From an uncultured Anaerolineae bacterium (lineage in GTDB: Bacteria; Chloroflexota; Anaerolineae; JAADDB01): a DNA stretch of 64,000 nt. The notes below the pieces were generated by a model. That model saw only the letters and a program-made list of their open reading frames with translations, searched no databases and was not told the DNA's origin. The stretch spans positions 46,168 to 110,167 of the forward strand of contig CAZAQA010000007.1 in assembly GCA_964487375.1 (NCBI GenBank). Direction: 5' to 3'. Shown here one piece after another: positions 539-52,962 of the stretch; positions within the stretch are counted from its first letter, which is position 1; every line of letters begins with the position of its first letter. The translations under genes were made by a program, and so were the position numbers.

Positions 539-2683
539 ATGACCCGTACGTTTCATGAGTATCTGGAAGAATTGTCAGAACGTGGCGACATTCGAGTGGG
601 CGTGCCCTTACCCCTGGGAGCTCACCAACATGGTGACGGGGTCAACTTTGCCCTCTTCAGCCGTCACGCGACACGCGTTTATCTGGAATTTTACGAGCGG
701 GCAGAAGACATCTCCCCAACTCGCGTGATCGAACTCGACCCCCGGTGTCATCGAAGTGGCGATGTGTGGCATGTGTGGGTACGCGGCGTTCGGCCCGGGC
801 AATTTTATGCCTATCGAGTTGATGGCCCTTACGAACCTGCTGCCGGGCACCGCTTCAATGTACACAAACTTTTGCTGGACCCTTACGCGACGGCTGTCAC
901 CCACACACGACCGTGGAATTTTGGTCACGCGCTGGGCTATGATCCCACTTCCCCGGCCGGGGACTTGAGTTTCTCTCACGAGGACGATGCCGGTGTGATG
1001 CCCAAATGTGTCTTCACCCACCAGTTCTTCGATTGGGAAGAGGACCGTCCCTTGCGTCTTTCCGGGTCGGAGATGATCATCTACGAAACGCACGTCCGAG
1101 GGCTGACTATTCACGCCAGTTCTGGGGTCGACCACCCAGGCACGTACCGTGGACTCGTCGAGAAGTTGCCTTACTTGAAAGATCTGGGTATTACAGCCAT
1201 CGAACTGATGCCGATCCAGGAGTTCAACGAGTTCGAAATCAACCGGGCAAATCCCCTCACAGGTGAGCCACTCCGAAACTATTGGGGCTATAACCCCGTG
1301 GCGTTCATGGCCCCAAAGGCTCGCTATGCCAGCGCCGGCGGCCGGGGGCATCAGAAGTTAGAATTCATGGAAATGGTCAAAGCCTGCCATCGACAAGGGA
1401 TGGAGGTCATCCTTGATGTGGTGTTCAACCATACGGCCGAAGGCAATGAATGGGGCCCGACCCTATGCTGGCGCGGCATCGAAAACAGCATCTACTACAT
1501 CCTGGCCGAGGATAAGCGTTATTATAAGAATTTCACCGGTACCGGGAACACCTTCAACGCCAATCATCCGGTCGTGCGAGATTATATTCTGGACACGTTG
1601 CGCTATTGGGTAATGGAGATGCACGTGGATGGCTTCCGGTTTGACTTGGCGGCCGTGCTGGGCCGGGACGAGGCTGGTCAGCTCCTGCATAATGCCCCCT
1701 TGCTAGAGCGAATTGCCGAAGATCCCATCCTACGCGAGGTGAAAATCATTGCGGAAGCGTGGGACGCAGCAGGGGCCTATGAGGTGGGAAGCTTCGCTCA
1801 GAGTCGCTGGGCTGAGTGGAACGGACGGTATCGGGATGATGTGCGTCGTTTCTGGCGAGGAGATGAGGGGATGTTGGGACTTTTCGCCTATCGCATTTGT
1901 GGAAGTTCGGACCTCTACCAGCGTTCGGGCAAGGGGCCGGAGTGCAGCGTCAACTACATCACCTCGCATGATGGCTTTACACTCAACGACCTGGTGAGCT
2001 ATCGCTTCAAGCATAATGAGGCCAACGGGGAAGACAACCGTGATGGCACGGACGAGAATTTCAGTGACAATTACGGTGTTGAGGGCCCCACCAACGACCC
2101 CAACATCGAGTCTGTACGCAAGCGTCAGATAAAAAACTTTTTGCTCACATTGCTCATCTCTCGTGGTGTCCCTATGATTCTGGGAGGAGATGAATTCCGC
2201 CGTACGCAACGAGGGAATAACAACGCTTACTGTCAAGACAACGACGTCAGTTGGTACGACTGGACATACCTGGAAATGCATCATGAAATCTATCGTTTCA
2301 CTAAGGGCATGATCGCCTTGCGCAAAGCGCACCCTGTCTTACGCAAAGGGACCTTTTACACAGATGCGGACATCAGCTGGTTCAGTCCCAATGGTGATCC
2401 CCCCGACTGGTTCGACCCATCTAAGAAGCGGCTGGCCTGTCATATTTTCGGCGAAGAAGGGGAACCTGACCTGTATTTGATGTTCAATGCCCATACGGAT
2501 GGCGTGACCTTTCGTTTGCCTGCTCTCCCGAAAGGGAAAGTTTGGCACCTGGTTGCTGATACGGCACATACTCCACCAACCGACATCCATGCAAGCCGCG
2601 AAGGCCCTCGGTTGGCCGACCAGCAGCACTATCGATTGGAGGGGCGGAGTAGTGTGATATTGGAAGCTATCGAACAGGAGTAG
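539..2683 (+). CDS. glgX: Glycogen debranching enzyme GlgX (GH13 isoamylase-type)
   Basis: 714 aa. GH13 catalytic motifs are present (GFRFDLAAVL, EAWDAAG, YITSHDGFTL, GGDEFRRTQRGNNNAY), and the N-terminus is typical of GlgX/TreX. Confidence 0.85.
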   Translation: MTRTFHEYLEELSERGDIRVGVPLPLGAHQHGDGVNFALFSRHATRVYLEFYERAEDISPTRVIELDPRCHRSGDVWHVWVRGVRPGQFYAYRVDGPYEPAAGHRFNVHKLLLDPYATAVTHTRPWNFGHALGYDPTSPAGDLSFSHEDDAGVMPKCVFTHQFFDWEEDRPLRLSGSEMIIYETHVRGLTIHASSGVDHPGTYRGLVEKLPYLKDLGITAIELMPIQEFNEFEINRANPLTGEPLRNYWGYNPVAFMAPKARYASAGGRGHQKLEFMEMVKACHRQGMEVILDVVFNHTAEGNEWGPTLCWRGIENSIYYILAEDKRYYKNFTGTGNTFNANHPVVRDYILDTLRYWVMEMHVDGFRFDLAAVLGRDEAGQLLHNAPLLERIAEDPILREVKIIAEAWDAAGAYEVGSFAQSRWAEWNGRYRDDVRRFWRGDEGMLGLFAYRICGSSDLYQRSGKGPECSVNYITSHDGFTLNDLVSYRFKHNEANGEDNRDGTDENFSDNYGVEGPTNDPNIESVRKRQIKNFLLTLLISRGVPMILGGDEFRRTQRGNNNAYCQDNDVSWYDWTYLEMHHEIYRFTKGMIALRKAHPVLRKGTFYTDADISWFSPNGDPPDWFDPSKKRLACHIFGEEGEPDLYLMFNAHTDGVTFRLPALPKGKVWHLVADTAHTPPTDIHASREGPRLADQQHYRLEGRSSVILEAIEQE

Positions 2684-2865
2684 TACTCGGTCAAGAGTCA
2701 CCTGATAGTAAAAGTGACCCCGCTAACGGGTCGGGGCTTGCCGAATTCATTCGCCTGTACGGCCACGGGTAGACGAAGGCAGTGCCTCCGCCTACCCGTT
2801 CTTGGGGGGCCTGGTTGGGAAAATTCATGGTTTATCCATCACTCCATGATTGACCAAGTGGTAGG
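2681..2865. repeat. MITE-like dispersed repeat, copy 1 of 3 (about 185 bp); sits between glgX and glgP
   Basis: Near-identical to 47743-47930 and 52790-52962. Begins TAGTACTCGGTCAAGAGTCACCTGA and ends ATGATTGACCAAGTGGTAGG. Contains a conserved internal hairpin GGGTAGACGAAGG...CCTTCGTCTACCC. Confidence 0.5.
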
Positions 2866-2874
2866 AGGAATGTC

Positions 2875-5001
2875 ATGCTTAAACAGGAAGCATTTCCGGA
2901 ATTGCCGGAACGCATCAAGGGGCTTCGCCGCCTCTCGTACAACTTATGGTGGTCGTGGAATGCACCTGCGCGTGCCTTGTTCCGCATGATCGATCCGAAC
3001 CGTTGGCGTGAAAGCGGATACAACCCTATATTGATGTTGAGCCGTATGCCCCAGGAAATGATCGAACATCTGGCACGGGACACGGAGTTCTTGGTCCACT
3101 ATGATGCTGTCATGGGTCAGTTTGAAGCGGCCATTGATGAGGGTACAGGATGGTTCACAGCTCGATACGGAAAGGCACCGGGACCTATCGCCTACTTGTG
3201 TGCTGAATATGGCCTGCACACCTCCTTACCGGTGTACGCGGGAGGTTTAGGAATTCTAGCCGGGGATTATCTCAAGGAGTGCAGCGACTTGGCCATTCCT
3301 GTCGTTGCTGTGGGGTTGATTTATTCTGACGGCTATGTGCGTCAGCGCATCCGAGAGGATGGATGGCAAGAAGACGTTGAAGAGACGCTAGATCGTACAT
3401 ATGATCCGATCGAACCCGTACTCGACGCGGGAGGGAGACAACAGATCGTCCGGGTTCCCCTTTTCGATCCTCCTGTGTATGTGGCTGTGTGGCGAGTCCA
3501 TGTGGGCCGGGTTCCTCTTTACCTGTTGGACACGGATATCGAAGAGAACCAACCCTGGAATCGGGCCATTGCCCAACGGCTCTACGCCAGCAACCCCGAA
3601 CAGCGGTTGCGTCAGGAGATCGTCTTGGGTATTGGAGGGATGAGGGTATTGGACGCTTTGGGCATTCAGGCTGCGGCCATTCATTTGAACGAGGGGCACC
3701 CCGCGTTAGCCGTATTGGAACGTATTCGCACAGAAGTCGCTCAAGGGAAGTCTTTCGAAGAAGCACAGCATCTGGTGAAAGCGACCACTATTTTCACGAC
3801 TCACACCCCTGTCCCGGCCGGGACGGATATTTTCCCTTTCCAACTTATGGAGAAGTACTTTTCGGCCTATTTGGATGAACTCGGCACAGAGCGTGACACG
3901 TTCTTACAATTAGGTGTCGACCCCAAGGAACCCAACGCGGGGTTCAACATGACGGTTTTTGCCCTGCGCATGTCCGCCTTCCGTAATGGCGTCAGCAAGC
4001 GTCATGGGGAAGTCGCACGCAAGATGTGGGCTCATCTCTGGCCGGACAAATCGCTCGAGCAGGTCCCTATTGACAGCATCACGAATGGCGTGCACCTGGC
4101 GACATGGATTGACCCGTCCCACTTGCAGCCTTTGCTGAATGCCCACATCGGTCCGGCCTGGCTGACAGACCAGGATCGTCCTGGTGTCTGGGAGCTTGTA
4201 CGGGACATCCCGGACGACCTTCTCTGGAACGCCCATCAAGAAAACAAAGTCGCCCTGCTGACACAAATCGCGGAACGAGCGCGTGAACGCTGGCAACGAG
4301 ACAAAGTACCCCCTGGCAGTATCATTGCTTTCGGCGCGCTGCTGGATCCCGACGTTCTAACCATTGGGTTTGCGCGACGCATGACAGGCTATAAGCGCCC
4401 CACGCTCTTGTTCCACAATCTGGAACGTCTGCGCAAACTTGTGACAAATCCGGTGCGTCCTGCCCAGATCATTTTTGCGGGCAAGGCTCATCCGGCAGAC
4501 ACAGAAGGGAAGCGTCTGATTCAAACTATCTTCCGTCTCGCTGAGGCCCCAGAATTTGCGGGACGTATCGCCTTTGTCGAGAATTACGATCAGCGTCTGG
4601 CGGAATATATGGTTCACGGTGTAGACGTTTGGCTGAACAATCCACTTCCACCTTTGGAGGCTAGCGGAACCAGCGGCATGAAGGCGTCCGTGAATGGAAC
4701 TCCGCACCTCTCCATTCTGGATGGTTGGTGGATAGAGGGGTACAATGGAGAGAATGGATGGGCTTTTGGAGATGAGGCGAGCTCAGAAGACCGGGACGCC
4801 AGTGATGCAGAGGCAATTTATCGACTTTTAGAGGATGACATCATTCCCAAATACTATGAGCGATCCGATGAAGGCATCCCTCTCGGTTTCGTCGCTATGA
4901 TGAAAAAGGCCATTCAGGGCGTGGCTCCATATTTTAGTACCCGGCGGATGGCCAGAGAATATGTGCAAAAATTCTATTTGGATGCACTTAAACTATCATA
5001 G
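2875..5001 (+). CDS. glgP: Alpha-glucan (glycogen/maltodextrin) phosphorylase, GT35 short form
   Basis: 708 aa. N-terminal DUF3417-like region (LSYNLWWSWN) followed by GT35 phosphorylase motifs (EASGTSGMKASVNG). RBS AGGAGGAA precedes the ATG. Confidence 0.85.
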   Translation: MLKQEAFPELPERIKGLRRLSYNLWWSWNAPARALFRMIDPNRWRESGYNPILMLSRMPQEMIEHLARDTEFLVHYDAVMGQFEAAIDEGTGWFTARYGKAPGPIAYLCAEYGLHTSLPVYAGGLGILAGDYLKECSDLAIPVVAVGLIYSDGYVRQRIREDGWQEDVEETLDRTYDPIEPVLDAGGRQQIVRVPLFDPPVYVAVWRVHVGRVPLYLLDTDIEENQPWNRAIAQRLYASNPEQRLRQEIVLGIGGMRVLDALGIQAAAIHLNEGHPALAVLERIRTEVAQGKSFEEAQHLVKATTIFTTHTPVPAGTDIFPFQLMEKYFSAYLDELGTERDTFLQLGVDPKEPNAGFNMTVFALRMSAFRNGVSKRHGEVARKMWAHLWPDKSLEQVPIDSITNGVHLATWIDPSHLQPLLNAHIGPAWLTDQDRPGVWELVRDIPDDLLWNAHQENKVALLTQIAERARERWQRDKVPPGSIIAFGALLDPDVLTIGFARRMTGYKRPTLLFHNLERLRKLVTNPVRPAQIIFAGKAHPADTEGKRLIQTIFRLAEAPEFAGRIAFVENYDQRLAEYMVHGVDVWLNNPLPPLEASGTSGMKASVNGTPHLSILDGWWIEGYNGENGWAFGDEASSEDRDASDAEAIYRLLEDDIIPKYYERSDEGIPLGFVAMMKKAIQGVAPYFSTRRMAREYVQKFYLDALKLS

Positions 5002-28484: not shown

Positions 28485-29212
28485 AAAAGAGCCTCCTTTT
28501 TTTCTGTACCCACAGCACAGGTGATGGTATGCCTGCCTGTGTGCCAGGCAAACGGCCGAGGGGGCTCTCCGGCAGCCTATGGCATTGCCCAAACCGAAGA
28601 CCATCGGACCTGCTTTCATCCACAAATAGCCTTCCGGGTCACTTGGGCATATGTTTCGCCGCTTTCACCCCCCTTTTAACTTTAACCTCCATGAAATCCC
28701 CCTGATCCATCGATTTCACTATAACATAGGATGTCCGGCCGGGCAAGGCGGTTATCGCTAGGGGGAGGCTGTCTCCATGACCTCGAGCTCGCCGAAGAGA
28801 TTGTGCAACGCGTGGATGTTGTCTGGGGATGGTCAATTACCTTCTTATTTGATTCCTCAGGATGAGACATTAAGGTCAACAGGCCACCGGCGAGACCGGT
28901 GGCCTGAGCTCTCCCCGCGATGCCGTGTGCCAAGTGGTCCTGAACCTGCTCACGCAGGTGGGAGGCTCGGGCTGATCTCCCGCCTTGCCCGACGGCTATC
29001 GCGTTCCACCAGCACACTCGCTTCCCTAAATTTTGGTGTTGGCTCAGGACCTCGCAGGGCATCACGCACACCGCAGGGTCTAGTTGAATATACCATAGCT
29101 TCAGGGCGGGCGCAAAATAGGCCTATCGGGGGATGTACGCCGGTGTGCCAACGGGGTATGCTATGGATAGTATGCACACTCTCGACACAGAATCACACGT
29201 GCGGGGGCAAAT

Positions 29213-29241
29213 TTGAACGTTGCGGGCAAAATTTGGATAAT
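29213..29241 (+). promoter_or_regulatory. Candidate sigma70 promoter for the giant secreted-protein gene
   Basis: TTGAAC (29213-29218), a 17-nt spacer, then GATAAT (29236-29241). Overlaps an imperfect direct repeat GCGGGGGCAAATTTGAAC / GCGGGCAAAATTTGGAT. Confidence 0.35.
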
Positions 29242-29311
29242 GCCTGAACATAGGCCAGCCATGCTGCATTGTTCAGTTGTACAAAAACCCTGCGCTCAGG
29301 GGAGGAATGTA

Positions 29312-32300
29312 ATGTCTAGAAGGATACCATGGTGGGGCTTCGCGGGGATCCTGTTGATTGTCGCCTTTCTGTTGGTCTCGTTCTCTCAGATGCCCGTTAA
29401 TGCCGATCTCACAGCTACAGGGTGGAAATTGTCCTACACAGGCCAAAATAACTGGCTGAAGGACGTTCAATTTGTGAGCTCAACCATCGGTTATGCTGTT
29501 GGTGAGTCAAAAATCCCTCTTTGGTTTGGACAAGGGGCCAGGTATCGCGGCTCTATCCTGCGCACATTTGATGGCGGCGAGACGTGGGAAGAGATGTACA
29601 CCCAGGATAGCGCCAAGTTCGAATTGCGGGCCATGCGGGGTCTGCATATGATCTCCCCTCAGGAAGGGTGGGCGGTGGGCGACTTGGGCCGCATCTTGCA
29701 TACTCGTGATGGCTGGCAAACATGGGAGGTGCAATCCTCCGGACATAGCAAGCCTCAATTTGATGTCTTTGTCTCTCCTGACGGACGGTTGGGCTGGATT
29801 GGCACCAGTCCGAACGCCGGTCACTTGTTGCGGACGACCAACGGTGGACAAACGTGGATATCAGGTATGGGCAACCCGGCTCCTTGGGGAGCATCTACCG
29901 AAAGTATGGACTGGTTGTTTGTGAACGGCGTTTGGTACGGCTATGCTATTGGTTCTGTGAGCACGGGAGGCCTTTTCGTCCGCTCTGTCGACGGAGGGCG
30001 TTCCTGGATTCGCACTACTCCCGCCTTGGCCGACGTCCACGTTCATCAAGTGGACTTCGTAGATCCTGACCATGGGTGGGTTGCAGCCAACGACGGCCGG
30101 ATCTATAGGACAGAAGACGGCGGAGAGACCTGGCAATATTCCCAGATGGACAAGAATGTGCACGTGATGGATGTTCAGTTCCTCGATCGTTTTCATGGCT
30201 ATGCGGTCGGCGCGCGGTGTCCCTATCCTCCCAACTATTGGTTCCAATGTACAGATTCACCAGACGGAACGGGGCGGCGGATCTCTGCCCAGGTGGTCTT
30301 TTTGACAACCGATGACGGTGGGCGGAGCTGGAAGAGTCAGACGCTACCGGGGGACAGCGTGCCAGTGGCGCTCGATGTTCTGGACCCGAATCACATATGG
30401 ATTGTCGGTGAGCGCGGCATGGTGCTTCGTTACACAAGTGATGCGCCTCTTCCGACGCCGACGGCTTCAGCCGTCACACCGGTTACGCCGACCCTCACAC
30501 CGACTGCAACGGCTACCCCCACGCCAACTCCCAGTGCGACCCCTACCGGCCTTGTTGGCTCGGGAACCCTGGTGCTGCAGGAAGGAGTCAACGGGTACAA
30601 CGGCGTGCAGGACACGTATATCGAACGCTGGTGGCCGTATGGGTATAAAAATTTTGGCAAGGACCCCATCATCGCCATTCGCGGTGAGGATAAGCATGGG
30701 GTCACCCTGGAAGGCCTTTTGCGCTTCGACCTTCACCTTTTGCCTCGGTATGCCATTATACAGCGAGCGGAATTGCGCCTGTATTCCGGTGCGGCGAACA
30801 GGGAATCTCCTGAATTGTTCCGCGCTTATATGTTACGCCGCCCCTGGGACGAGACCATCGCCACGTTTTACACGGCCTCCCGCCGGGAAAGCTGGGAAAC
30901 CCCCGGCGCACTGGGCTCAAGTGACCGGGATCCCTCCCCTGTGGGGGAATCTATCGTCGATAGACCTTACACCTGGCTTAGTATTGATGTCACCTCTGCT
31001 GTCGGCAAGTGGGTACGAGGGGAAGTCCCCAATGATGGCTTGGTGGTGCAGGCTTTCGCCATCCCCGGTCATCCGGCTGTTCATCATAATTTCATTAGCA
31101 GTGAGGATCGGCATGTGAACCTGAGGCCACAACTCGTCATCAAGTATTCGATCGCTACCCCCACGCCGACACCTTCACCGACGCCGACGGCCACCTTTAC
31201 TCCCACGCCGACGCCGACTTCGACTCCCCGGACAACGCCAACGCCGGTGTATTCTAAGCCTCTCACTTTGCATTTGCAGGAAGGGCGGGATGGATATCAA
31301 GGAGTGAAGGATACGTACATCAGCCGTTGGTTCAGGAAAGTGAACTACGGTTTGGACCCGGTTTTGGCCCTACGCACAGAGGACGCCATCGGGCCCACCC
31401 ATGAAGTACTTCTTTATTTCCCCTTACCAAAGGCCATCCCACCTCGGGCCGAGATCCTCAAAGCCACATTGAAATTGTATTCGGGGGCGCGTAATCGGAA
31501 TGCCGCCATCTTGTTACGGGCGTATTTACTCTTGCGGTCTTGGAAAGACACGGATGCAACATGGTATGACGCCATGGCCGGAACCCCCTGGGAAAAACCG
31601 GGGGCGTTCGGTACCAGTGACCGCGTGTCTCAGGCCGTTGGAGAGGTTGTTTTCGACAAGACTCACGCTTGGGTCAATATGGATGTGACAGCAGCGGTTG
31701 CCCGTTGGGTGCGCGATCCGAACAGCAACCGGGGCTTGCTCTTGCAAGGGTTCAAATTGGGCACTCAGGTAGAGCATCGGTTTTTGAGCAGTCAGTATCC
31801 TAACATCGAACTTCGTCCCTTGCTGGAAATCACCTATCGTGTTCCTGTGGAGCCGACAGCGACGCCGACGCCTACACGTACGCCCACAGCAACGCCATTT
31901 CCGAGCGATACTCCCACACCGACGCCGACTCCCACCTTCGATCCTCTGATCTCGCCGTTGCCGACGCCAACCCCGACGTTGACATCAACCCCGACCTGGA
32001 CGCCGACGCCTTCCCCGACCTTCACGCCCACGTCAACCTCCACGCCAACTGTGGTTTACTATACTGCACCTATCACCAAGAAGCTGCAACTGGGGGTTGA
32101 TGGATATACGGGCATGAGAGACACGTACATCAGTCGCTGGTACAGAAATCGAAATTTCGGTCGCGAACCTGTCTTGGGGGTGCGTACAGAGGACACTTTC
32201 GGGGTCACTCACGAAGCACTCCTGTATTTCCCCCTCGCTGACGTTTTGCCGTCCCATGCCCGTGTATTGAGCGCTCGGCTCAAGCTGTATTCGGGTGCTC

Positions 32301-34408
32301 GCAACCGCCGTGCTCCCATTATTCTGAGAGCCTACATGTTGCGGCGTGCCTGGGATGAGGAAACGGCTACCTGGGTTCGGGCTGACACAACGTCTTCCTG
32401 GGCAACGGCAGGGGCCCAAGGGGACGGGGATCGCTATCTGACCCCCATCGGGGAAACTACCTTCAATCGAGTGTACACCTGGGTCTCCATTGACGTTACC
32501 GAGGCGGTGCAGCGCTGGCTGGAAGGAAAGGATGCAAACGACGGCCTTATCATCCAGGGTTTCAAAGTAGCCGGCGGTTCTCAGGTACAGCACAACTTCC
32601 TGAGCAGCGAGTACCCTGACCCGCGGTTGCGCCCGATCCTGGAGATCACATATCAGGAACAGACGACGACACCTCCCACAATGACCCCTACGCCAACGCC
32701 AACCGTGCAGTCGACGGCGACCTGGACTCCACGCCCAAGCCCGACGCGCGGAATCCGTCCGACACCTCTTCCGCCTGCGCCGACGGCCACCCCTCTTCCC
32801 ACTCGTCCTATTCGTCCAGGTGTGGACGGCTGGGAAGCGGTGCGCCATCCAGGCGTCTACATGGCCTACGATTATTCTGGACACAATCCGCAAGTTTACG
32901 GTACGGTGGGCTCCCTGGCTTCTTTCCATTGGTCAGCGCTGGAGAAGCAAAAGGACCGGTATGATTTTAGCGATATTGATCGGTGGTTAACTCGGCTGGC
33001 CAGTGATGGCCTGAAAGGCGCTTTCTTTGTTGATCTCTTCGACGGCGGTTGCTATGGAGATCGCTCTTTGCCTCAGTATCTTATCAATGACCCTCAAGCC
33101 GTCCTCCGGCGCAATCTGGGCTACGTTTGTCCACAGTCGGGACGAACGTGGAAGGCCATTCCCAACTACATGAGTCCTGTCTTGCAGGAACGGTATCGGC
33201 TCCTTATTTACAAACTGGGCGCACATTACAAGAATGATCCCCGAGTAGAATTTATTGCAGTAGGCACGGGGATTTATGGAGAAACACGAGCGGCAGCGGA
33301 AACAGCTGACCTGAATGCCTTGAAAGCGGCCGGTCTCACCAGCGACCTGTGGGTCGATTTTGTCAAGAAGGTTGGAGCCTGGTACCGCGACGCGTTTTCT
33401 GATGCCCAGGGCCATTTGCTCAAGCCCGTTCTCCAACAATCAGCGCCGGTGACGTTCTCGCCTCGTGAGCGCCGCGAAATCAATCAGCACGCGTTGCAAT
33501 TGGGTATGGGCATTTCCCTGAACTTGATGTATCCAGACGGTGAGGGGGTGCTCTTCAAGAACAATCCTGCCTGTCCGTACTGCTCTTGGTATGATTTCCC
33601 TATGCTCTATTGGGACATCATGCCGACGGCATGGGAGGCCTATAAACAGCAGACATGCACGCCTGAACAAATCTGGTGGGGGGTATACAATATTCTCAAT
33701 AAACATCCCGTGTACCTGCGAGTGGCATGGCCTCTCATCCGCACCAACAACGGAACCCCACGATGGGAGAATCTGGCTCCTTTCAAGTGGGCGGCGCCTT
33801 TCCTGGGCGTGAAAGCAGCGAACGCCCCTGCCGCCTGGGTGGCTTTGCGTGAACATCGCGACCCCTGGCGGCCGTTGACCTGCATGGGCATCGATGCTCC
33901 GGCTCAACATCAGAATCCGCAATGGGGAAACTACGGCTTTTTCATGGACCAGCGCGACGACTTGCCGGGAGGACGGACTGTACCGGAGACAAACGACCCG
34001 AAGGTAACACGTATGGCCAGCAATACACATCCGTACAATCCTGCCCTTCCACCAGGGAAGGAAGCTTGGACGGTCCGTCGGACGGACGAGCGTACAGGGA
34101 ATCGTTACATGTTCTTCGATGTTACCCGAGATTACTTGAGCGGTGTTCATTCAGCGACAGTGAAAGTCACGTACTGGGATCACGGAACGGACACCTGGAG
34201 CCTGTACTATCGGGACGCACAAGGCCGGGTTGTCCGGGCAGGCCTTGTGCGCAAGACGAATAGTGGCCGCTGGAAGACGGCTGTTTTCCAACTGGCTCGC
34301 GCACGTTGGGATAATTCTCTCCCTGAAGGCACAGGCGGGGCAGACTTCTATCTGGACAGCAATAACGACGGAGATGAGTGGATTCACTTCGTAGAGGTGC
34401 TGAAGTGA
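29312..34408 (+). CDS. Giant secreted multidomain protein: BNR/Asp-box beta-propeller, 3 x DNRLRE/CBM96-like domains, and a glycoside-hydrolase-like TIM-barrel domain, joined by Thr/Pro linkers
   Basis: Start at the ATG after GGAGGAA. Signal peptide. Asp-box repeats (TNGGQTW, VDGGRSW, EDGGETW, DDGGRSW). Three ~200-aa repeats with a DTYISRW...LRAYMLRR.WDE..ATW pattern. PTPTPT linkers. C-terminal W..LEK..DRYDF..ID GH42-like region. Confidence 0.7.
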   Translation: MSRRIPWWGFAGILLIVAFLLVSFSQMPVNADLTATGWKLSYTGQNNWLKDVQFVSSTIGYAVGESKIPLWFGQGARYRGSILRTFDGGETWEEMYTQDSAKFELRAMRGLHMISPQEGWAVGDLGRILHTRDGWQTWEVQSSGHSKPQFDVFVSPDGRLGWIGTSPNAGHLLRTTNGGQTWISGMGNPAPWGASTESMDWLFVNGVWYGYAIGSVSTGGLFVRSVDGGRSWIRTTPALADVHVHQVDFVDPDHGWVAANDGRIYRTEDGGETWQYSQMDKNVHVMDVQFLDRFHGYAVGARCPYPPNYWFQCTDSPDGTGRRISAQVVFLTTDDGGRSWKSQTLPGDSVPVALDVLDPNHIWIVGERGMVLRYTSDAPLPTPTASAVTPVTPTLTPTATATPTPTPSATPTGLVGSGTLVLQEGVNGYNGVQDTYIERWWPYGYKNFGKDPIIAIRGEDKHGVTLEGLLRFDLHLLPRYAIIQRAELRLYSGAANRESPELFRAYMLRRPWDETIATFYTASRRESWETPGALGSSDRDPSPVGESIVDRPYTWLSIDVTSAVGKWVRGEVPNDGLVVQAFAIPGHPAVHHNFISSEDRHVNLRPQLVIKYSIATPTPTPSPTPTATFTPTPTPTSTPRTTPTPVYSKPLTLHLQEGRDGYQGVKDTYISRWFRKVNYGLDPVLALRTEDAIGPTHEVLLYFPLPKAIPPRAEILKATLKLYSGARNRNAAILLRAYLLLRSWKDTDATWYDAMAGTPWEKPGAFGTSDRVSQAVGEVVFDKTHAWVNMDVTAAVARWVRDPNSNRGLLLQGFKLGTQVEHRFLSSQYPNIELRPLLEITYRVPVEPTATPTPTRTPTATPFPSDTPTPTPTPTFDPLISPLPTPTPTLTSTPTWTPTPSPTFTPTSTSTPTVVYYTAPITKKLQLGVDGYTGMRDTYISRWYRNRNFGREPVLGVRTEDTFGVTHEALLYFPLADVLPSHARVLSARLKLYSGARNRRAPIILRAYMLRRAWDEETATWVRADTTSSWATAGAQGDGDRYLTPIGETTFNRVYTWVSIDVTEAVQRWLEGKDANDGLIIQGFKVAGGSQVQHNFLSSEYPDPRLRPILEITYQEQTTTPPTMTPTPTPTVQSTATWTPRPSPTRGIRPTPLPPAPTATPLPTRPIRPGVDGWEAVRHPGVYMAYDYSGHNPQVYGTVGSLASFHWSALEKQKDRYDFSDIDRWLTRLASDGLKGAFFVDLFDGGCYGDRSLPQYLINDPQAVLRRNLGYVCPQSGRTWKAIPNYMSPVLQERYRLLIYKLGAHYKNDPRVEFIAVGTGIYGETRAAAETADLNALKAAGLTSDLWVDFVKKVGAWYRDAFSDAQGHLLKPVLQQSAPVTFSPRERREINQHALQLGMGISLNLMYPDGEGVLFKNNPACPYCSWYDFPMLYWDIMPTAWEAYKQQTCTPEQIWWGVYNILNKHPVYLRVAWPLIRTNNGTPRWENLAPFKWAAPFLGVKAANAPAAWVALREHRDPWRPLTCMGIDAPAQHQNPQWGNYGFFMDQRDDLPGGRTVPETNDPKVTRMASNTHPYNPALPPGKEAWTVRRTDERTGNRYMFFDVTRDYLSGVHSATVKVTYWDHGTDTWSLYYRDAQGRVVRAGLVRKTNSGRWKTAVFQLARARWDNSLPEGTGGADFYLDSNNDGDEWIHFVEVLK

Positions 34409-47133: not shown

Positions 47134-47742
47134 CACACTTCGTTCAGGGTTGTACGAACGTGCCTGTTGGCTTGGTGGGGGATGGGCACGCATTGTGTTA
47201 GCGCCTATTCTAGGGAAATACAGTCACTGTGTCAAATCGATATGTCAGACATCTCGACTTATTTGCGCGAGGCTGGACGGGTGGATGTCACTATTCTTTT
47301 GGGATGTCGCTCAGATGGGGACAGGTTCCTTGTCTCAAAAAATTCCGTCTCCGGAGGCAGCAGCCATAACGGGTAGGTGTTCATTGATTTGTGCAACATA
47401 ATGTCCGAACGGATTGTCTCCTCTCTTAAACGAACATGTCGAGTTTGGTCTTGTGTGAATATGTGGCTGTCGGTTTCCCCAGGCGTTGCAACTTGCGTCC
47501 AAGAAAAACCAGCAAGCGTCCGGTGATATGGAGCATCCGGTGCATCTGGACCATGGTCCACCCGCGTGTGTCCACACCCGCCTGTTGGAGCATGCGTTGC
47601 TGCGCGGCCTCCCTGAGCCGGTCTTTTCGAAGTTCGGCATAGTAATAATAGTGAACGTCATTGATGAAAAGCATTTCCCTCTCTCCTTGTGCCTTAATAC
47701 GAACCATCCATTATGCCTACCCTGACCATGCTCTAAGATGGT

Positions 47743-47930
47743 CTAGTACTCGGTCAAGAGTCACCTGAGAGTAAAAGTCCCCCGCTAAAGGATCGGGAAT
47801 TGCCGAATTCATTCGCCTGTACGGCCACGGGTAGACGAAGGTAGTGCCTTCGCCTGCCTGTTCTTGGGGGCCCTGTTTCAGGAAAGTCTCCATGGTTTAT
47901 CCTTCACTCCGTGATTGACCCAGTACTAGG
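47743..47930. repeat. MITE-like dispersed repeat, copy 2 of 3 (188 bp), with near-perfect terminal inverted repeats
   Basis: 5' end CCTAGTACTCGGTCAA; 3' end TTGACCCAGTACTAGG (reverse complement). The internal sequence is colinear with copies 1 and 3. Confidence 0.5.
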
Positions 47931-47989
47931 ACCAGGGCAGTGATCATACGGCCAACAGGTCGACCGGACCAGTGCTTCGCAGTTCAGGC

Positions 47990-48616
47990 TCAGAACAGGT
48001 TATCCGGCATGTCTCCTACGAAATAAGGCAAGTCTGCGTGCCCGAGCTGTTGGCGAACTGCATGAGCCTCGCCTGTGTGGAAGAAGTAATGGTAGGTAGT
48101 GCGCAGGACCTTGGTGCCTACGCTTTCGTCCGAGCGGACAAATCCCTGAGCCACCAGTGCTTCGGCCCTCTCTTTCGTGATGATCCCAAACACAGCACTT
48201 TTTAGTATCTCTGCTCCAGCACTCACGTCCTGTGTTAGATGTGTCCACAACTGTTCCTCTGTCAGTGTCGTCAGAAATCTGTCAGCGGCTTGGGTGATGT
48301 CATGCCACGCATCCCACATATCGGCCAGGGGAGGCGTCGAGGCTGGCTGGCCAAATCCCACCAATTTGTTCACGTTGGGCCAAGGCACTTCGCCTTGAGC
48401 AAAATAGACAAAATAGAACTGCTCCTGGGCTGCCATATGGCCGACCATCCAACTGATGCAGTTCATCGGCATGAGGCGACGACGTGCGTCTTCATCAGAT
48501 AAGCCTTCCAGACAGCGCACGAACTCACGGCGGGCGAAGCGGAGTTGTCTCACGAGGGGGTGGGGGACACTGATTCCAGTATATGTCTGTAAGTACTCGG
48601 CCTTTGTTCTAGGCAT
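47990..48616 (-). CDS. DinB/YfiT-like (DinB_2, DUF664) family protein
   Basis: About 208 aa with the DinB_2 metal-binding His pattern. The start is preceded by a tandem 15-nt duplication that includes the RBS. Confidence 0.6.
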   Translation of the reverse strand: MPRTKAEYLQTYTGISVPHPLVRQLRFARREFVRCLEGLSDEDARRRLMPMNCISWMVGHMAAQEQFYFVYFAQGEVPWPNVNKLVGFGQPASTPPLADMWDAWHDITQAADRFLTTLTEEQLWTHLTQDVSAGAEILKSAVFGIITKERAEALVAQGFVRSDESVGTKVLRTTYHYFFHTGEAHAVRQQLGHADLPYFVGDMPDNLF

Positions 48617-48779
48617 TCCTTCATTCCTTTCTCTATTCACCTTTCTCTATTCACTGGTTCAACTACGCATCAACTTGAGTGGAGGAGACGAAACCCACTC
48701 GATTCAACTTGATTTCATTATAGAAGGGCGGACTTAATGGAGACTAAACAGAATACCTGCTAAAGGGTGAGATGTGGCA

Positions 48780-51700
48780 TTAAACGGTTAAGTTGCAACG
48801 GTGTGCGAGATTTGTTTGCATTGCCGCGATATGTAAGAAGGTGTGTCGGAGAGCTTCATCTGTGAGATGCTCGGCAACATGGTGGATGATTTGGTGGGCA
48901 GTGACTAACTGTGCTTGGGCTTCTTGATGACGCCCTGCATTGACGTACAACGTGGCTAGTTGGGCGCGTCCTTGCCACCGAAGAGGTTGATAGTGAATTC
49001 CATCTGCCAATTGCACTGCGGCTTCCAATTCGTTGATGGCGTTGACCGTGCGCTTTAACCGAGATAGCGCTGAAGCGCTTAGTGAGCGATACTGGGCCAA
49101 GTACTTGCTTGCCGTAGCCGATTTCGCCAGCGCCAATCCCTCTTCCACTAGCGGAAACACAGCGGCTGGTTGGTTGAGGGCCAGATGACATGATGCTCGG
49201 GCGTGAAGGATGCGCAAGCGCCAGCGCCACGCGTGGAAACCAAAGCTGCCCGCTTTAATTCTGGCCTCGATGCCATCCAGCATTTCCATGGCCTGGCGCG
49301 GTTCTCCCATGTACAGCACATCAAGGCAGACATTGAGCCGGGCGCTCACTTCCGGTGGACCTTTGCCCCACTCTTGGGCCAGGGCAACCCCTTCTTGGTC
49401 CAGGTGCAGGGCCTGTTCAAAGGCCCCTAACTCACGATGAAGCCAGCCCAGCATATTGGGAATTTGGGCGATGAGGTATCCGTCGCCAACGGTCTCCGCC
49501 TCCACCTGGCTACGCTGGAATGCTCTCATCGCTTCTTGGTATTCACCATATCCGCCGTAAGCACGCCCCAGCAGGTTCCACGAGTAGGCCATGGACATTT
49601 TGTCTTCGAGCTCGGTCAGAGGTTGTAGTGCCCGCTTTATAGTAGTGATGGCCTGGGCAAACTCACCACGCTGGGTGTGGAGGAAGCCTGTTTCATTGAG
49701 GACGCAGGCTGCCAAGTGAACATCACTCAACTCGTCACTGAGGGTTTGCGCTCGGGTGATAGTGTCCAGGGCCTGATTTAGCAGTCCCTGGCCTTCGTAG
49801 ATCTCGGTGAGTAGTAACAGGTTTTGGGCGACTAACGCGTTGTCACCTGCCTGTTCGGCCGCGGATAATGCAGCGTAGACGTAGCCGGTGGTCACTTTGT
49901 GCTGTCGGTTGGCAAGCTGGGCTCGCGTGAACAGAAAGCGCGCTCGCCGAACGTTATCTTCGTGCATTTCCGCCAGGTGGATTCCTTGTTTTAGCGCTGC
50001 TGTCGCTCGAGCCGCGTGGTCTAGAAGCATAAAGGCCCGACTCAACCCTTCGTAGGCGTCCATCTCTTGCGCCGCCCCTTCGGCTAGGACTAAGGCTCGT
50101 TCATAGTGTTGTACAGCCTCTTGCAAAGCATAAGTGCGGAGGGCTTTTTCGCCTGCCAACAGCCAATAGACTCGAGCCCGGTTGGTGTCCCGAGCCCGTT
50201 CGAAATGGTAGGCCAAAAGTGCTGGCCGCTCTTTGGTCGATTGTTCCAAGGTTTTTGCAATTTGGCCATGATACATGACCCGACGCGTCTCGCTAAGGTC
50301 GTTGTAGACGACTTCGCGGATTTTGGAGTGACCAAAGTCGTAGCCTTCATCTATCTCTTGCCACAATTCTCGTTGCAGCAGGCTCTCCACGATCTCCAAT
50401 AGATCCAACGGATTCTGGCCAGTGATGGCTTGCAGGGTGGAGAAATCGAAATTCTGGCCAAACACAGCCATCCAACCCAATACCTGTCGCTCCAACGGCG
50501 CCACTTGCTGTAAGCGTCCTCGCACCGATGCTTGAATAGCTTCTGGCAAGGTGATATGAAGGGGTAAGTTCATGGCCGGCGCGGTTTCCTCTAGTTTTCC
50601 CTGTTCTTGCAATGCCTGAAGAATGGACACGAGGAAAAAGGGATTGCCGCTTGTTTCGTCATGAAGCCATTCACACCAGGTAAGAGGTACGACTTCTTGG
50701 GCTACCAGCAGTTCTTTGATATCAGCACTTGAAAGGCGGTCCAGAGTGATAAAAGTTGTGTGCGGCTCGCACTGGAGATGATGAACTAGCGCGGCCAAGT
50801 GCACATTTGCGGCCGCTTCCTCCTGGCGATAGGTGCAAACCAGCAATATCCTTTCAGCGGCGGCGCGTCGAGCCAGGTGGTGGAGAAATTGGAGTGTTGC
50901 CGTATCGGCCCAATGAATATCGTCGACATTGAGCATGAGACCATGTCCTCTAGCCATGGTTGACAACAGGTACACGATGGCCTGGAAAAGGCGTCCCTGC
51001 TGGCTTTTGGTCTGGATGGCGGAGGCGGTGGTCTGGTTTGTAGCAGCGATCTCCGGCGCCAAGGTCACGATTTCTCTCAACCAGGCTGCGGGCAACTCGG
51101 CAATTTTCTCCGGCCACACTGCGTTGATGTGCTGCACTAAATCAATGATGGGTTGGTAGGGGATGGTTTGCTCTACTTGGTAACTCCGGGCGAAGAGGAT
51201 GGTGAGGCCGCTGTTGCCGGCGAACACCGCTGCTTCCCGCATCAAGCGGCTTTTGCCAATGCCTGGCTCACCGCTTAGAAAGACCACGCCACCATGACCC
51301 TGGTTAACCAGGGCAGTTATCTGACTGTATTCGCGCGCTCGGCCCACAAATGGGGTTGGCCTGAGCAGATGGACACTAGCAGGTATCTGCTCAGGGCGTG
51401 GGTAGAGCTTGTCTCTGTCAACACTTGCTACCTGATGACGTTGAATTTGGTGAAAGAGTTCAGTCGTCTGTTGCGCCGGTTTGACGCCTATCTTTTCCCA
51501 CATCACTCGACGCACCTGGTTGTAGAGCTCCAGAGCCTCGGGCTGTTCACCAGTGCAGTAGAGGTACAGCATCAGTTGGCGATAGGTGGACTCGCGGGTG
51601 CTTTCGACTCCAAGACTTTGTCGACACAATCCGATCGCGTGGCGGTATTGCCCCCGACGTGCGTAGCCCTGCGCGAGGTCGGCCAACAAATTCAGGTACT

Positions 51701-52193
51701 GTTCCCGTAGCTGCTCGCGTGGGCCCAGCGCCCACTCTGCATAAGGATCATCCTCCATAAAGTCGCCTTGGTAAAGCTGCCGCGCCTTGTCCAGGGCGTC
51801 AATACGAAGGGCCAAGTCGGCTGTTTTTTGCGCCATATCAAGATAGTGGCTAAAGGCGTCAGCGTCGATCCAATAATCGCTGTTGGGATCGAACAGATAA
51901 CCTTCATCACACTTGACGATGTAATCGGAGGGAGCACGTGGCGGCAAGTCGGGCTGTAGCACGCGTCGTGCCTGTCCCACCGTCACCCAGAGATTATTGC
52001 GGGCCCTTTTGGGCACGAGATTAGGCCAGAGATACTCAATGAGCCGATCCGTCGAAACAAGATGTCCTCGTTTTGTGAGGAGAATTTTGAAGAGTTGCCT
52101 GCTTTTTGACGTCGGCCAGACGTTAGAAGAGATCGTTTCTCCGCCGCGCCACATGTGAAAGGGCCCCAGTGTTTGAATGCGGATATTCGGCAT
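48780..52193 (-). CDS. AfsR/SARP-family large regulator: OmpR-type wHTH, BTAD, STAND/NB-ARC-like ATPase, TPR repeats
   Basis: Trimmed to the ATG giving MPNIRIQTLGPF.... SARP DNA-binding and BTAD region. P-loop GEPGIGKSRL. Long C-terminal TPR-like array. Confidence 0.7.
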   Translation of the reverse strand: MPNIRIQTLGPFHMWRGGETISSNVWPTSKSRQLFKILLTKRGHLVSTDRLIEYLWPNLVPKRARNNLWVTVGQARRVLQPDLPPRAPSDYIVKCDEGYLFDPNSDYWIDADAFSHYLDMAQKTADLALRIDALDKARQLYQGDFMEDDPYAEWALGPREQLREQYLNLLADLAQGYARRGQYRHAIGLCRQSLGVESTRESTYRQLMLYLYCTGEQPEALELYNQVRRVMWEKIGVKPAQQTTELFHQIQRHQVASVDRDKLYPRPEQIPASVHLLRPTPFVGRAREYSQITALVNQGHGGVVFLSGEPGIGKSRLMREAAVFAGNSGLTILFARSYQVEQTIPYQPIIDLVQHINAVWPEKIAELPAAWLREIVTLAPEIAATNQTTASAIQTKSQQGRLFQAIVYLLSTMARGHGLMLNVDDIHWADTATLQFLHHLARRAAAERILLVCTYRQEEAAANVHLAALVHHLQCEPHTTFITLDRLSSADIKELLVAQEVVPLTWCEWLHDETSGNPFFLVSILQALQEQGKLEETAPAMNLPLHITLPEAIQASVRGRLQQVAPLERQVLGWMAVFGQNFDFSTLQAITGQNPLDLLEIVESLLQRELWQEIDEGYDFGHSKIREVVYNDLSETRRVMYHGQIAKTLEQSTKERPALLAYHFERARDTNRARVYWLLAGEKALRTYALQEAVQHYERALVLAEGAAQEMDAYEGLSRAFMLLDHAARATAALKQGIHLAEMHEDNVRRARFLFTRAQLANRQHKVTTGYVYAALSAAEQAGDNALVAQNLLLLTEIYEGQGLLNQALDTITRAQTLSDELSDVHLAACVLNETGFLHTQRGEFAQAITTIKRALQPLTELEDKMSMAYSWNLLGRAYGGYGEYQEAMRAFQRSQVEAETVGDGYLIAQIPNMLGWLHRELGAFEQALHLDQEGVALAQEWGKGPPEVSARLNVCLDVLYMGEPRQAMEMLDGIEARIKAGSFGFHAWRWRLRILHARASCHLALNQPAAVFPLVEEGLALAKSATASKYLAQYRSLSASALSRLKRTVNAINELEAAVQLADGIHYQPLRWQGRAQLATLYVNAGRHQEAQAQLVTAHQIIHHVAEHLTDEALRHTFLHIAAMQTNLAHRCNLTV

Positions 52194-52789: not shown

Positions 52790-52962
52790 CCTAGTACTCG
52801 GTCAAGAGTCACCTGATGGTAAAAGTGACCCCGCTAAAGGGTCGGAGGCTGCCGAATCCATTCGCCCGGACGGCCACGGGTAGACGAAGGCATTGCTTCG
52901 TCTACCCCGGTTCAGGAAAGTCCATGGCTTATCCATCACTCCATGATTGACCAAATCCTAGC
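52790..52962. repeat. MITE-like dispersed repeat, copy 3 of 3 (about 173 bp); carries the most intact internal hairpin
   Basis: Starts CCTAGTACTCGGTCAAGAGTCACCTGA. Perfect 12-bp hairpin GGGTAGACGAAG/CTTCGTCTACCC. Same orientation as copy 2. Confidence 0.5.

What the first reader, a model, noticed from the sequence alone, without database searches (positions are those of the whole stretch)
2681..2865. Three-copy ~180-bp MITE-like repeat family with terminal inverted repeats and a conserved internal hairpin
Copies lie at 2681-2865 (glgX/glgP spacer), 47743-47930 and 52790-52962. They are about 90% identical and colinear. Copy 2 has near-perfect 16-bp terminal inverted repeats: CCTAGTACTCGGTCAA at the 5' end, and TTGACCCAGTACTAGG at the 3' end. 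All copies share an internal hairpin (GGGTAGACGAAGG-loop-CCTTCGTCTACCC) that is perfect in copy 3 and mutated, without compensation, in copies 1 and 2. That pattern favours a decaying non-autonomous transposable element over a selected structured RNA. Copy 1 starts exactly at the glgX stop codon and ends at the glgP RBS, so it sits inside an operon spacer and could affect glgP expression.
Basis: seen in the sequence. Interest (0 to 1): 0.6.

Follow-up and report, generated by a model that had tools for sequence, protein, structure and literature searches.

The report
Small non-coding transposon (MITE) family
The three ~170-base repeats are real and are copies of a miniature, non-coding "cut-and-paste" transposon (a MITE) in an uncultured deep-sea iron-mat bacterium, one of which landed exactly between two glycogen genes without destroying either signal; this is an ordinary kind of bacterial repeat, only a new family of it.

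Summary
Three colinear copies, all on the + strand, lie at 2680-2864, 47743-47929 and 52791-52961. They are 86-89% identical, all intergenic, and far beyond chance.

Two new results support a transposon.
- Each copy has an 11-nt terminal inverted repeat (TACTCGGTCAA / TTGACCnAGTA) and is flanked by a 4-nt direct repeat. The repeat is GTAG/GTAG at copy 1 and CTAG/CTAG at copies 2 and 3.
- A fourth copy, on another contig from the same site (L016), also has CTAG/CTAG flanks, plus a 99-nt extra internal segment.

Removing copy 1 and one GTAG rebuilds a compact glgX-glgP junction, GAG-TAG-GAGG-N6-ATG. The nearest relative (GlgX 80% identical) has a 66-nt spacer without the element.

There is no Rfam match, no conserved promoter or terminator, and no usable coding capacity. 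The central hairpin varies mostly by transitions, which give a mix of G·U and A·C on either strand. Copy 4 has one fully compensated U-A to G-C pair.

I found no autonomous IS or transposase. Total copy number is unknown, because the genome is not in the searchable DNA collections.

Verdict: a new family of bacterial MITE that targets (C/G)TAG, mobilised either IS5-style (4-bp duplication) or IS630-style (TA within CTAG). Interest is low.

The parts
2680..2683 (+). Copy 1, left 4-nt direct repeat GTAG. Its TAG is the glgX stop codon.
2684..2860 (+). Copy 1, element proper (177 nt) in the glgX-glgP spacer. Inverted-repeat arms at 2684-2694 (TACTCGGTCAA) and 2850-2860 (TTGACCAAGTG). Central hairpin at 2765-2799 with two A·C mismatches on the + strand.
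2861..2864 (+). Copy 1, right 4-nt direct repeat GTAG. Its last G starts the glgP Shine-Dalgarno GGAGG (2864-2868); the ATG is at 2875.
47743..47746 (+). Copy 2, left direct repeat CTAG
47747..47925 (+). Copy 2, element proper (179 nt). It lies between the 3' end of a DinB/MST-like gene (47990-48640, -) and a small minus-strand ORF. Inverted-repeat arms at 47747-47757 and 47915-47925 (10/11). Central hairpin at 47827-47861. Gene callers made a spurious 58-aa ORF (47717-47893, -) from it.
47926..47929 (+). Copy 2, right direct repeat CTAG
52791..52794 (+). Copy 3, left direct repeat CTAG
52795..52957 (+). Copy 3, element proper (163 nt, lacking about 15 nt after the hairpin). It lies 38 nt beyond the stop of a PLP-decarboxylase-like gene (53000-54523, -) and upstream of a BTAD/AAA/TPR regulator gene (-). 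Inverted-repeat arms at 52795-52805 and 52947-52957 (8/11). Perfect 12-bp hairpin at 52878-52907.
52958..52961 (+). Copy 3, right direct repeat CTAG

Best explanation
These are copies of a miniature inverted-repeat transposable element (MITE). It is a 163-179-nt non-coding DNA transposon, with a 279-nt long form, and it cannot move by itself.

Inferred mechanism: a DDE-type transposase, encoded elsewhere in the genome and not found here, binds the 11-nt terminal inverted repeats (TACTCGGTCAA ... TTGACCnAGTA). It excises the element and inserts it by staggered cuts at a (C/G)TAG target. Gap repair then duplicates either the 4-nt target (IS5-style) or, less parsimoniously, the central TA of CTAG (IS630-style).

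Shown directly:
- the inverted repeats
- the locus-specific flanking direct repeats
- dispersal to four unrelated intergenic sites
- the lack of coding capacity

The copies differ by 8-14%, so the family is old, and recent activity is not shown.

Copy 1 inserted exactly where the glgX stop codon overlapped the glgP ribosome-binding site. The duplicated GTAG regenerated the stop codon on the left and the RBS on the right. Both genes therefore stayed intact, now 191 nt apart.

Inferred only: copy 1 is co-transcribed with glgX-glgP, because no + strand terminator-like site was found in it. Its terminal stem could modulate coupling or mRNA stability.
For: - Repeat family. There are three window copies, with 0 matches in shuffled windows. 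A fourth copy lies at L016 8451-8173 (-), in a different gene neighbourhood.
- Ends. The 11-nt inverted repeat matches 8-10 of 11. Four-nt direct repeats abut it in 4 of 4 copies: GTAG/GTAG, then CTAG/CTAG three times. The one locus with a different left flank has the same different right flank. CTAG is rare in this window, at 0.26 of expectation.
- Empty-site reconstruction. For copy 1 it gives ...CAGGAGTAGGAGGAATGTCATG, with the stop codon overlapping GGAGG 6 nt before the ATG.
- Nearest relative. Its GlgX is 80% identical, and it has glgX-66 nt-glgP without the element.
- Location and flanks. All copies are intergenic and lie in either orientation relative to neighbouring genes. Flanking sequences are unrelated.
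- Size classes. The long and short forms differ by a 99-nt internal segment bounded by AAGAGTCA / AACAGTCT. Correia elements also have two size classes (PMC2229807).
- Assembly behaviour. Short-read Logan contigs end 31-39 nt inside the repeat at copies 1 and 3, as expected for a multi-copy repeat.
- Not a known RNA. There is no Rfam family even at E<=10, and no shared promoter or terminator.
- No real protein. The only ORFs called in the element (58 and 79 aa) match nothing but each other among 5.8 billion and 1.84 billion proteins; the only other hits were weak (E 1e-9 to 2e-4), two of the three multi-stretch matches to much longer proteins, and were not followed up.
- Precedents. IS630 inserts at TA within CTAG (cited in PMC2170065). 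The IS5-related MITEPsy1 duplicates 4-nt CTAG/YTAA (PMC3189936). The general bacterial MITE definition is in PMC2229807.
Against: - No autonomous IS or transposase with these ends was found. No transposase Pfam domain occurs in any large ORF of the window or the fetched loci.
- Only four copies are documented. Exact-pattern scans of the genome, metagenome and viral collections added none. This probably means the genome is not in those collections.
- All versions of the three loci from the Lo'ihi samples retrieved here (5 sources for copy 1, 6 for copy 3, 3 for copy 2) carry the element, so no filled/empty polymorphism was seen.
- Because CTAG is a palindrome, the duplication length (2 or 4 nt) rests on copy 1 alone. 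The TAG at both ends could in principle be read as part of the element.
- The element is not A+T-rich (53-55% GC against 56% for the window), unlike most classical bacterial MITEs.
- One compensated base pair in the hairpin of copy 4 hints at some constraint on structure.
Confidence: 0.85

Rival explanations
1. A family of structured small RNA genes or cis-regulatory RNA elements. On this reading the sequence is kept for the fold of its transcript, and the repeats are paralogous RNA genes rather than insertions.
For: - Copies 2, 3 and 4 fold better than shuffled controls, with z = -4.4, -3.5 and -4.7.
- A 12-16-bp central hairpin is present in all copies. Copy 4 has one compensated U-A to G-C change, and copy 2 has three G·U pairs on the + strand.
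- All three window copies are on the + strand.
Against: - The flanking direct repeats and the clean empty-site reconstruction are not expected for RNA genes.
- There is no Rfam match even at E<=10.
- There is no conserved promoter or terminator, and upstream flanks are unrelated.
- Copy 1 folds no better than shuffles (z = -1.7 alone, +0.2 in its mRNA context).
- A 15-nt deletion and a 99-nt insertion are tolerated.
- The hairpin changes give A·C on the + strand in copies 1, 2 and 4, and C·A on the - strand in copy 2. Neither strand is consistently favoured.
- Only 1 of 46 predicted pairs shows a double change. Inverted repeats alone explain the good folding.
Confidence: 0.06
2. Each copy is the independently decayed remnant of a full-length insertion sequence, deleted in place. 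It would not be a family that spread as a miniature element.
For: Internal deletion is how MITEs arise. Copy 4 keeps 99 nt that the other copies lack.
Against: Copies 1-3 share the same internal junction (GAGTCA|CCTGA) and the same colinear interior. Three independent deletions would not reproduce this. No transposase-like coding remnant is present.
Confidence: 0.04
3. A REP/REPIN-like or IS200/IS605-derived palindromic element. These are mobilised by a Y1 (HUH) transposase that recognises the hairpin, not the ends.
For: A conserved G+C-rich hairpin lies in the middle of the element. The copies are intergenic.
Against: Those elements have no terminal inverted repeats and make no target duplication (my knowledge of the IS200/IS605 and REP/RAYT families). 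Here both are present. No RAYT or TnpA(Y1) gene was seen in the fetched DNA.
Confidence: 0.02

Closest known systems
Bacterial MITEs in general (Correia/NEMIS of Neisseria, RUP of S. pneumoniae, ERIC; review PMC2229807)
   Same: - Small and non-coding.
- Terminal inverted repeats, and TA at the termini (TACTCGG...AGTA in copies 2 and 4).
- Target-site duplication.
- Intergenic, including inside operons.
- Transcripts predicted to fold into a long stem-loop.
- Two size classes differing by an internal segment, as in the 107/155-bp Correia forms.
   Different: - No sequence similarity to any of them.
- Not A+T-rich.
- The target is (C/G)TAG rather than plain TA.
- The host is an uncultured bacterium from Lo'ihi iron mats.
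- Only four copies are documented, and the copy number is unknown.
- No IHF site, promoter or RNase III processing has been shown.
MITEPsy1 of Pseudomonas syringae (IS5-family derived; PMC3189936)
   Same: It has a 4-nt duplication of CTAG (or YTAA), is a short non-coding element with terminal inverted repeats, and is mobilised in trans by an IS transposase.
   Different: MITEPsy1 is 100 nt long with 18-nt repeats GGAAGGTCTGAAAAAGCC, which are unrelated to TACTCGGTCAA. Its parent (ISPsy2) is known and its transposition was trapped experimentally. Here the parent is unknown and mobility is only inferred.
IS630/Tc1-mariner elements and their MITEs (IS630, ISY100, RUP; PMC2170065, PMC2229807)
   Same: IS630 prefers TA inside 5'-CTAG-3' and duplicates the TA. 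If the G and C next to the TA are counted as element ends, copies 2 and 4 fit this exactly (C-TA-GTACT...AGTAC-TA-G).
   Different: Copy 1 then needs two changes in its right end instead of one. No IS630-type transposase (HTH + DDE) was found, and the inverted repeats were not compared with any IS630 member.

Membership tests
Bacterial MITE (definition as in PMC2229807) | Small size (about 100-300 bp) and no protein-coding capacity | tested here: met
   The copies are 163, 177 and 179 nt, and the long form is 279 nt. Stops occur in most frames, and the frames shift between copies. The 58- and 79-aa ORFs called in the element match only each other.
Bacterial MITE (definition as in PMC2229807) | Terminal inverted repeats | tested here: met
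   TACTCGGTCAA pairs with the reverse complement of TTGACCnAGTA. The match is 10/11 in copies 2 and 4, 9/11 in copy 1 and 8/11 in copy 3.
Bacterial MITE (definition as in PMC2229807) | Target-site duplication flanking each copy | tested here: met
   The flanks are GTAG/GTAG for copy 1 and CTAG/CTAG for copies 2-4. Whether the duplication is 4 nt or 2 nt (TA) rests on copy 1 alone.
Bacterial MITE (definition as in PMC2229807) | Multiple dispersed copies in one genome | tested here: inconclusive
   Four loci are known: three within about 81 kb of contiguous sequence, and one on another contig of similar composition. Assemblies break inside the repeat. The genome-wide count is not obtainable, because the DNA collections do not hold this genome.
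Bacterial MITE (definition as in PMC2229807) | Cognate autonomous IS or transposase with matching inverted repeats | not testable with these tools
   There is no further match to the terminal-repeat sequence and no transposase domain in the window or loci L001-L025. The rest of the genome could not be searched.
Bacterial MITE (definition as in PMC2229807) | Evidence of mobility: filled versus empty sites in related genomes | tested here: inconclusive
   All versions of the three loci from the metagenome sources retrieved here (3 to 6 per locus) are filled and identical. The nearest relative (80% GlgX identity) has a 66-nt unrelated spacer without the element. This is consistent with insertion, but the relative is too distant to give a precise empty site.
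Bacterial MITE (definition as in PMC2229807) | A+T-rich relative to the host | tested here: not met
   The element is 53-55% GC and the window is 56%. This feature is common but not obligatory; YPAL is also not A+T-rich (PMC2229807).
IS5-type mobilisation (4-nt CTAG/YTAR duplication, e.g. MITEPsy1) | 4-nt duplication of a CTAG-like target | tested here: met
   See; the precedent is in PMC3189936. The inverted repeats do not resemble those of MITEPsy1 or ISPsy2 (GGAAGGT...), so membership of that particular family is excluded.
IS630/Tc1-mariner-type mobilisation | TA duplication, with preference for CTAG, and an HTH+DDE transposase | tested here: inconclusive
   The flanks of copies 2-4 are compatible. 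Copy 1 fits less well. The transposase was not found. The precedent is in PMC2170065.
Described structured RNA families (Rfam 15) | A covariance-model match | tested here: not met
   There is no hit in copies 2, 3 or 4 at E<=10 and none in the window at gathering score. The only window hit is an unrelated 6S RNA.
REP/REPIN or IS200/IS605-derived palindromic elements | No terminal inverted repeats and no target duplication; hairpin recognised by a Y1 transposase | tested here: not met
   Inverted repeats and flanking direct repeats are both present.

The most novel reading that the evidence does not exclude
The element may be more than a decaying transposon. Its G+C-rich central hairpin could be kept by selection, as the compensated U-A to G-C pair in copy 4 hints. 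Copies co-transcribed with host genes might then act as RNA processing, stability or translation-coupling modules. Copy 1 would be the example: its terminal stem brings the glgX stop codon and the glgP ribosome-binding site back together. It would be a domesticated regulatory MITE in the manner of Correia elements, in an uncultured lineage.
Probability: 0.1. Interest if true: 0.4.

Novelty: new member of a known kind. Interest (0 to 1): 0.2.

Why it matters
- Annotation. The family explains spurious 58- and 79-aa 'hypothetical proteins' in public records. It also explains contig breaks in short-read assemblies of this organism.
- A clean example. It shows a target-site duplication rescuing both a stop codon and a ribosome-binding site when a transposon lands in an overlapping operon junction.
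- A strain marker. It could serve as a marker for this Lo'ihi iron-mat population.
- Limits. It does not change what is known about bacterial MITEs or about glycogen metabolism.

Tried and rejected
- Exact-pattern scans with invariant 18-21-mers found nothing new. Genome contigs gave 0 hits twice. Metagenome contigs gave 1 hit, which is the same locus as copy 2 (L005). Viral contigs gave 0. These collections evidently lack this genome, so the negatives say little about copy number.
- One viral scan with the 5' hairpin arm (GGCCACGGGKAGACGAAGG) hit 4 phage contigs. The hits lie in a conserved ORF motif (QPWxFGHGETKATCLWL), and the similarity ends after about 35 nt. I rejected them as coincidence.
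- A concatenated six-frame translation of the repeat, searched against 5.8 billion proteins, returned nothing. That negative is unreliable, because it missed the 58-aa ORF later found to be in the database.
- A single-frame profile then found that ORF and P0122, which led to copy 4.
- A search of P0122 against 1.84 billion representative proteins added no further copy and no transposase fragment.
- blastn of copy 2 against the annotated plasmid and phage collections gave no match.
- I searched for additional terminal repeats in the window and in six loci covering copy 4, the two nearest-relative contigs and the window's flanks (L006, L009, L010, L011, L016), allowing up to 4 mismatches, and found none.
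- Walking 10 kb upstream and 7 kb downstream of the window found no extra copy.
- Two look-ups failed because the start codons I guessed were wrong.
- The outward-facing -35-like TTGACC in each inverted repeat has no -10 partner at copy 1, and the promoter scans are negative.
- A weak minus-strand hairpin followed by TTTT inside the element was flagged only in copy 1. I did not pursue it as a terminator.
- Organism identity was not settled. The best named GlgX relatives are MAGs labelled Chloroflexi or Anaerolineae, at 73% identity. The samples are Lo'ihi Seamount iron mats.
Full report
**The observation**

A MAFFT alignment shows colinear copies whose similarity starts and stops abruptly against unrelated flanks. 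Invariant 21-25-mers from the 5' end and the middle each occur exactly three times, all on the + strand. So does a 24-mer from the 3' end, with up to 2 mismatches in copy 2. Dinucleotide-preserving shuffles gave no matches. A profile (nhmmer, --max) built from the three copies finds no further diverged copy in the 64 kb.

Identity of aligned bases is 86-89% among the window copies. Copy 3 lacks about 15 nt just 3' of the central hairpin.

- Copy 2 begins TCTAG, not CCTAG.
- The perfect hairpin arms of copy 3 are 12 nt, not 13.
- The hairpin changes are not simply uncompensated (see "Structure" below).

**Ends and flanking repeats**

Read in register, every copy has the form NTAG - TACTCGGTCAA ... 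TTGACCnAGTA - NTAG. The 11-nt inverted repeat matches 10/11 in copies 2 and 4, 9/11 in copy 1 and 8/11 in copy 3.

The abutting tetranucleotides are direct repeats:
- GTAG (2680-2683) and GTAG (2861-2864) at copy 1
- CTAG and CTAG at copy 2 (47743-47746 and 47926-47929)
- CTAG and CTAG at copy 3 (52791-52794 and 52958-52961)

CTAG is a palindrome. Copies 2 and 3 alone therefore cannot separate a 4-nt duplication from a TA duplication inside CTAG with one more base in each inverted repeat. Copy 1 can separate them. Its left flank differs (G instead of C) and its right flank differs in the same way. A 4-nt duplication predicts this. The TA model needs two substitutions in the right end instead of one.

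CTAG is strongly avoided in this window, with 64 sites, 0.26 of expectation. Four of those 64 sites are the flanks of copies 2 and 3.

**A fourth copy**

The DNA collections gave no new copy. Gene callers, however, had made a 58-aa ORF from the minus strand of copy 2. A profile of that reading frame, searched against 5.8 billion proteins, returned that ORF and one other protein, P0122 of 79 aa.

P0122 lies on an 8.5-kb contig from another Lo'ihi sample (L016). There the element occupies 8451-8173 (-), flanked by CTAG (8455-8452) and CTAG (8172-8169). The neighbourhood is unrelated to the window: a methyltransferase, a two-component system, and a BTAD regulator only 25% identical to the one in the window. 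The GC content (56.1%) and tetranucleotide usage of L016 resemble the window.

Copy 4 is 88-92% identical to the others. It carries 99 extra nucleotides after GAGTCA, bounded by AAGAGTCA / AACAGTCT. This fits either a microhomology-mediated deletion that produced the short form or a secondary insertion. The 99 nt match nothing else in hand.

**Context**

All copies are intergenic.
- Copy 1 sits between a GlgX-type debranching enzyme gene (539-2683) and an alpha-glucan phosphorylase gene (2875-5001), on their strand.
- Copy 2 lies after a DinB/MST-like gene.
- Copy 3 lies 38 nt after a PLP-decarboxylase-like gene and upstream of a BTAD/AAA/TPR regulator gene. Copies 2 and 3 are antisense to these minus-strand neighbours.

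Deleting copy 1 and one GTAG gives ...ATC GAA CAG GAG TAG GAGG AATGTC ATG. That is a stop codon overlapping a GGAGG 6 nt before the start codon, a typical tightly coupled junction. The duplication therefore rebuilt the stop codon on the left and the RBS on the right.

The closest relative in the protein database (GlgX 80% identical; L009) has glgX-66 nt-glgP. Its spacer is unrelated and carries no element.

Versions of the three loci from the Lo'ihi metagenomes and read-set assemblies retrieved here (JGI 3300023507, 3300023503, 3300009408, 3300000272; AMFO01; SRR5189948/9; each locus is covered by three to six of them) all carry identical copies. No empty-site polymorphism was seen. The Logan short-read contigs stop 31-39 nt inside the repeat at copies 1 and 3, as expected for a collapsed multi-copy repeat.

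**Structure: is it an RNA?**

Rfam 15 has no match to the element at gathering score, nor at E<=10 on copies 2, 3 and 4. The only window hit is an unrelated 6S RNA at 28908-29082 (-).

As RNA, copies 2, 3 and 4 fold better than shuffles (z = -4.4, -3.5, -4.7). Copy 1 does not (z = -1.7, and +0.2 when embedded in its mRNA context). Much of the folding signal comes from the terminal inverted repeat and the central palindrome.

RNAalifold on the four copies predicts 46 pairs, and only one shows a change on both sides. I went through the central hairpin pair by pair:

| Copy | + strand | - strand |
|---|---|---|
| 1 | two A·C mismatches | two G·U pairs |
| 2 | three G·U pairs and one A·C mismatch | three C·A mismatches and one G·U pair |
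| 3 | perfect | perfect |
| 4 | one A·C mismatch, plus a compensated U-A to G-C pair | one G·U pair |

The transitions therefore favour neither strand, as expected for unselected transition mutations. The single compensated pair needs two transversions. My rough estimate, assuming about 14 substitutions and counting the 16 hairpin pairs, is about 0.03 such events expected by chance. This is a hint of constraint. It could also reflect quasi-palindrome templated correction or descent from a sub-family. It is not proof of an RNA function.

No sigma-70-like promoter or + strand terminator is shared by the copies.

**Searches that failed**

No large ORF in the window, or in any called gene of loci L001-L025, has a transposase domain. 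No additional terminal repeat occurs in the window or in the six fetched loci I scanned for it. Plasmid and phage collections have no similar DNA.

Pattern scans of the genome and metagenome collections found only the copy 2 locus again. Even the window's own copies were not found in genome contigs, so this genome is simply not in that collection. The negatives do not bound the copy number.

A 19-nt match to four phage contigs lies in a conserved protein motif and is coincidental.

**Mechanism**

The best-supported reading is a MITE. A transposase supplied in trans recognises the 11-nt inverted repeats, and insertion at (C/G)TAG with staggered cuts yields the flanking duplication.

- Shown: the repeats, the inverted ends, the locus-specific direct repeats, the unrelated insertion sites and the absence of coding capacity.
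- Inferred: the enzyme class, the time of activity (8-14% divergence suggests an old family), and any effect on neighbouring genes.

For copy 1, co-transcription with glgX-glgP is likely, because no terminator-like site is present on the + strand. The terminal stem would place the UAG and the GGAGG at the base of one helix. Whether this preserves coupling or invites RNase III cleavage, as proposed for Correia/NEMIS elements (PMC2229807), is speculation.

**Comparison with known elements**

The element meets the working definition of bacterial MITEs in PMC2229807, except that it is not A+T-rich:
- small and non-coding
- terminal inverted repeats
- TA at the termini
- target duplication
- stem-loop transcripts
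- insertion in and between operons

Its long/short dimorphism parallels the 107/155-bp Correia forms.

A 4-nt CTAG/YTAA duplication is documented for the IS5-related MITEPsy1 (PMC3189936). TA-in-CTAG targeting is documented for IS630 (Tenzen & Ohtsubo 1991, as cited in PMC2170065).

The inverted repeats resemble neither MITEPsy1 nor anything else I could search. It is thus a new family, not a member of a named one. REPIN or IS200/IS605-type elements are excluded by the inverted repeats and duplications. That exclusion rests on my own knowledge of those families.

**Verdict**

It is a new member of a known kind, of modest interest (0.2). Its main value is for annotation and as a neat example of a duplication-rescued operon junction.

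The most novel reading still open is a selected, regulatory hairpin-bearing MITE that modulates glgX-glgP. I give it about a 10% chance.

Noticed in passing
window 28908-29082 (-): A 6S (SsrS) RNA gene: Rfam RF00013, 73.8 bits, full-length match. It is unrelated to the repeat family.
   Followed up: no
window 47717-47893 (-); L016 8205-8444 (+): Gene callers turned copy 2 into a 58-aa 'protein' (P0121, present in NCBI, JGI and MetaClust). They turned copy 4 into a 79-aa one (P0122). Among billions of proteins the two match only each other, so they are spurious ORFs created by the repeat.
   Followed up: yes
L002, L004, L008, L013, L015, L024 (Logan contigs of SRR5189948/9): Short-read contigs end 31-39 nt inside the repeat on both sides of copy 1 and on the decarboxylase side of copy 3. 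This is the assembly signature of a multi-copy repeat.
   Followed up: partly
L016 8440-8342 (-), inside copy 4: A 99-nt extra internal segment is bounded by AAGAGTCA / AACAGTCT and is absent from copies 1-3. It is either the ancestral long form or a nested insertion. It has no similarity to anything else fetched.
   Followed up: partly
L017-L020 (IMG/VR contigs): The 19-mer GGCCACGGGGAGACGAAGG, the 5' arm of the hairpin in its copy 4 version, occurs in four phage contigs. There it encodes FGHGETK within a conserved ORF motif (IENP...QPWxFGHGETKATCLWL). The similarity ends after about 35 nt, so I judged it coincidental.
   Followed up: partly
window, whole: CTAG is strongly under-represented (64 sites, 0.26 of the composition-based expectation). 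TTAA is also low (0.35). Four of the 64 CTAG sites are the flanks of copies 2 and 3.
   Followed up: no
window 47734-47746 + 47930-47934 (reconstructed target of copy 2): The reconstructed insertion site of copy 2, TGGTCTAGGACCA, is itself an imperfect palindrome centred on the target. The other three targets are not palindromic.
   Followed up: no
window 29213-34408 (+): A 1731-aa ORF has BNR/Sortilin-like and CBM96 domains. It contains Pro/Thr-rich tandem repeats at 30488-31230. It is probably a large secreted or cell-surface glycan-binding protein.
   Followed up: no
window 48780-52445 (-) and L016 2734-6321 (-): Large BTAD/AAA_16/TPR regulators (1221 and 1195 aa, 25% identical) lie within a few kb of copies 3 and 4. 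With two cases this is probably coincidence.
   Followed up: partly
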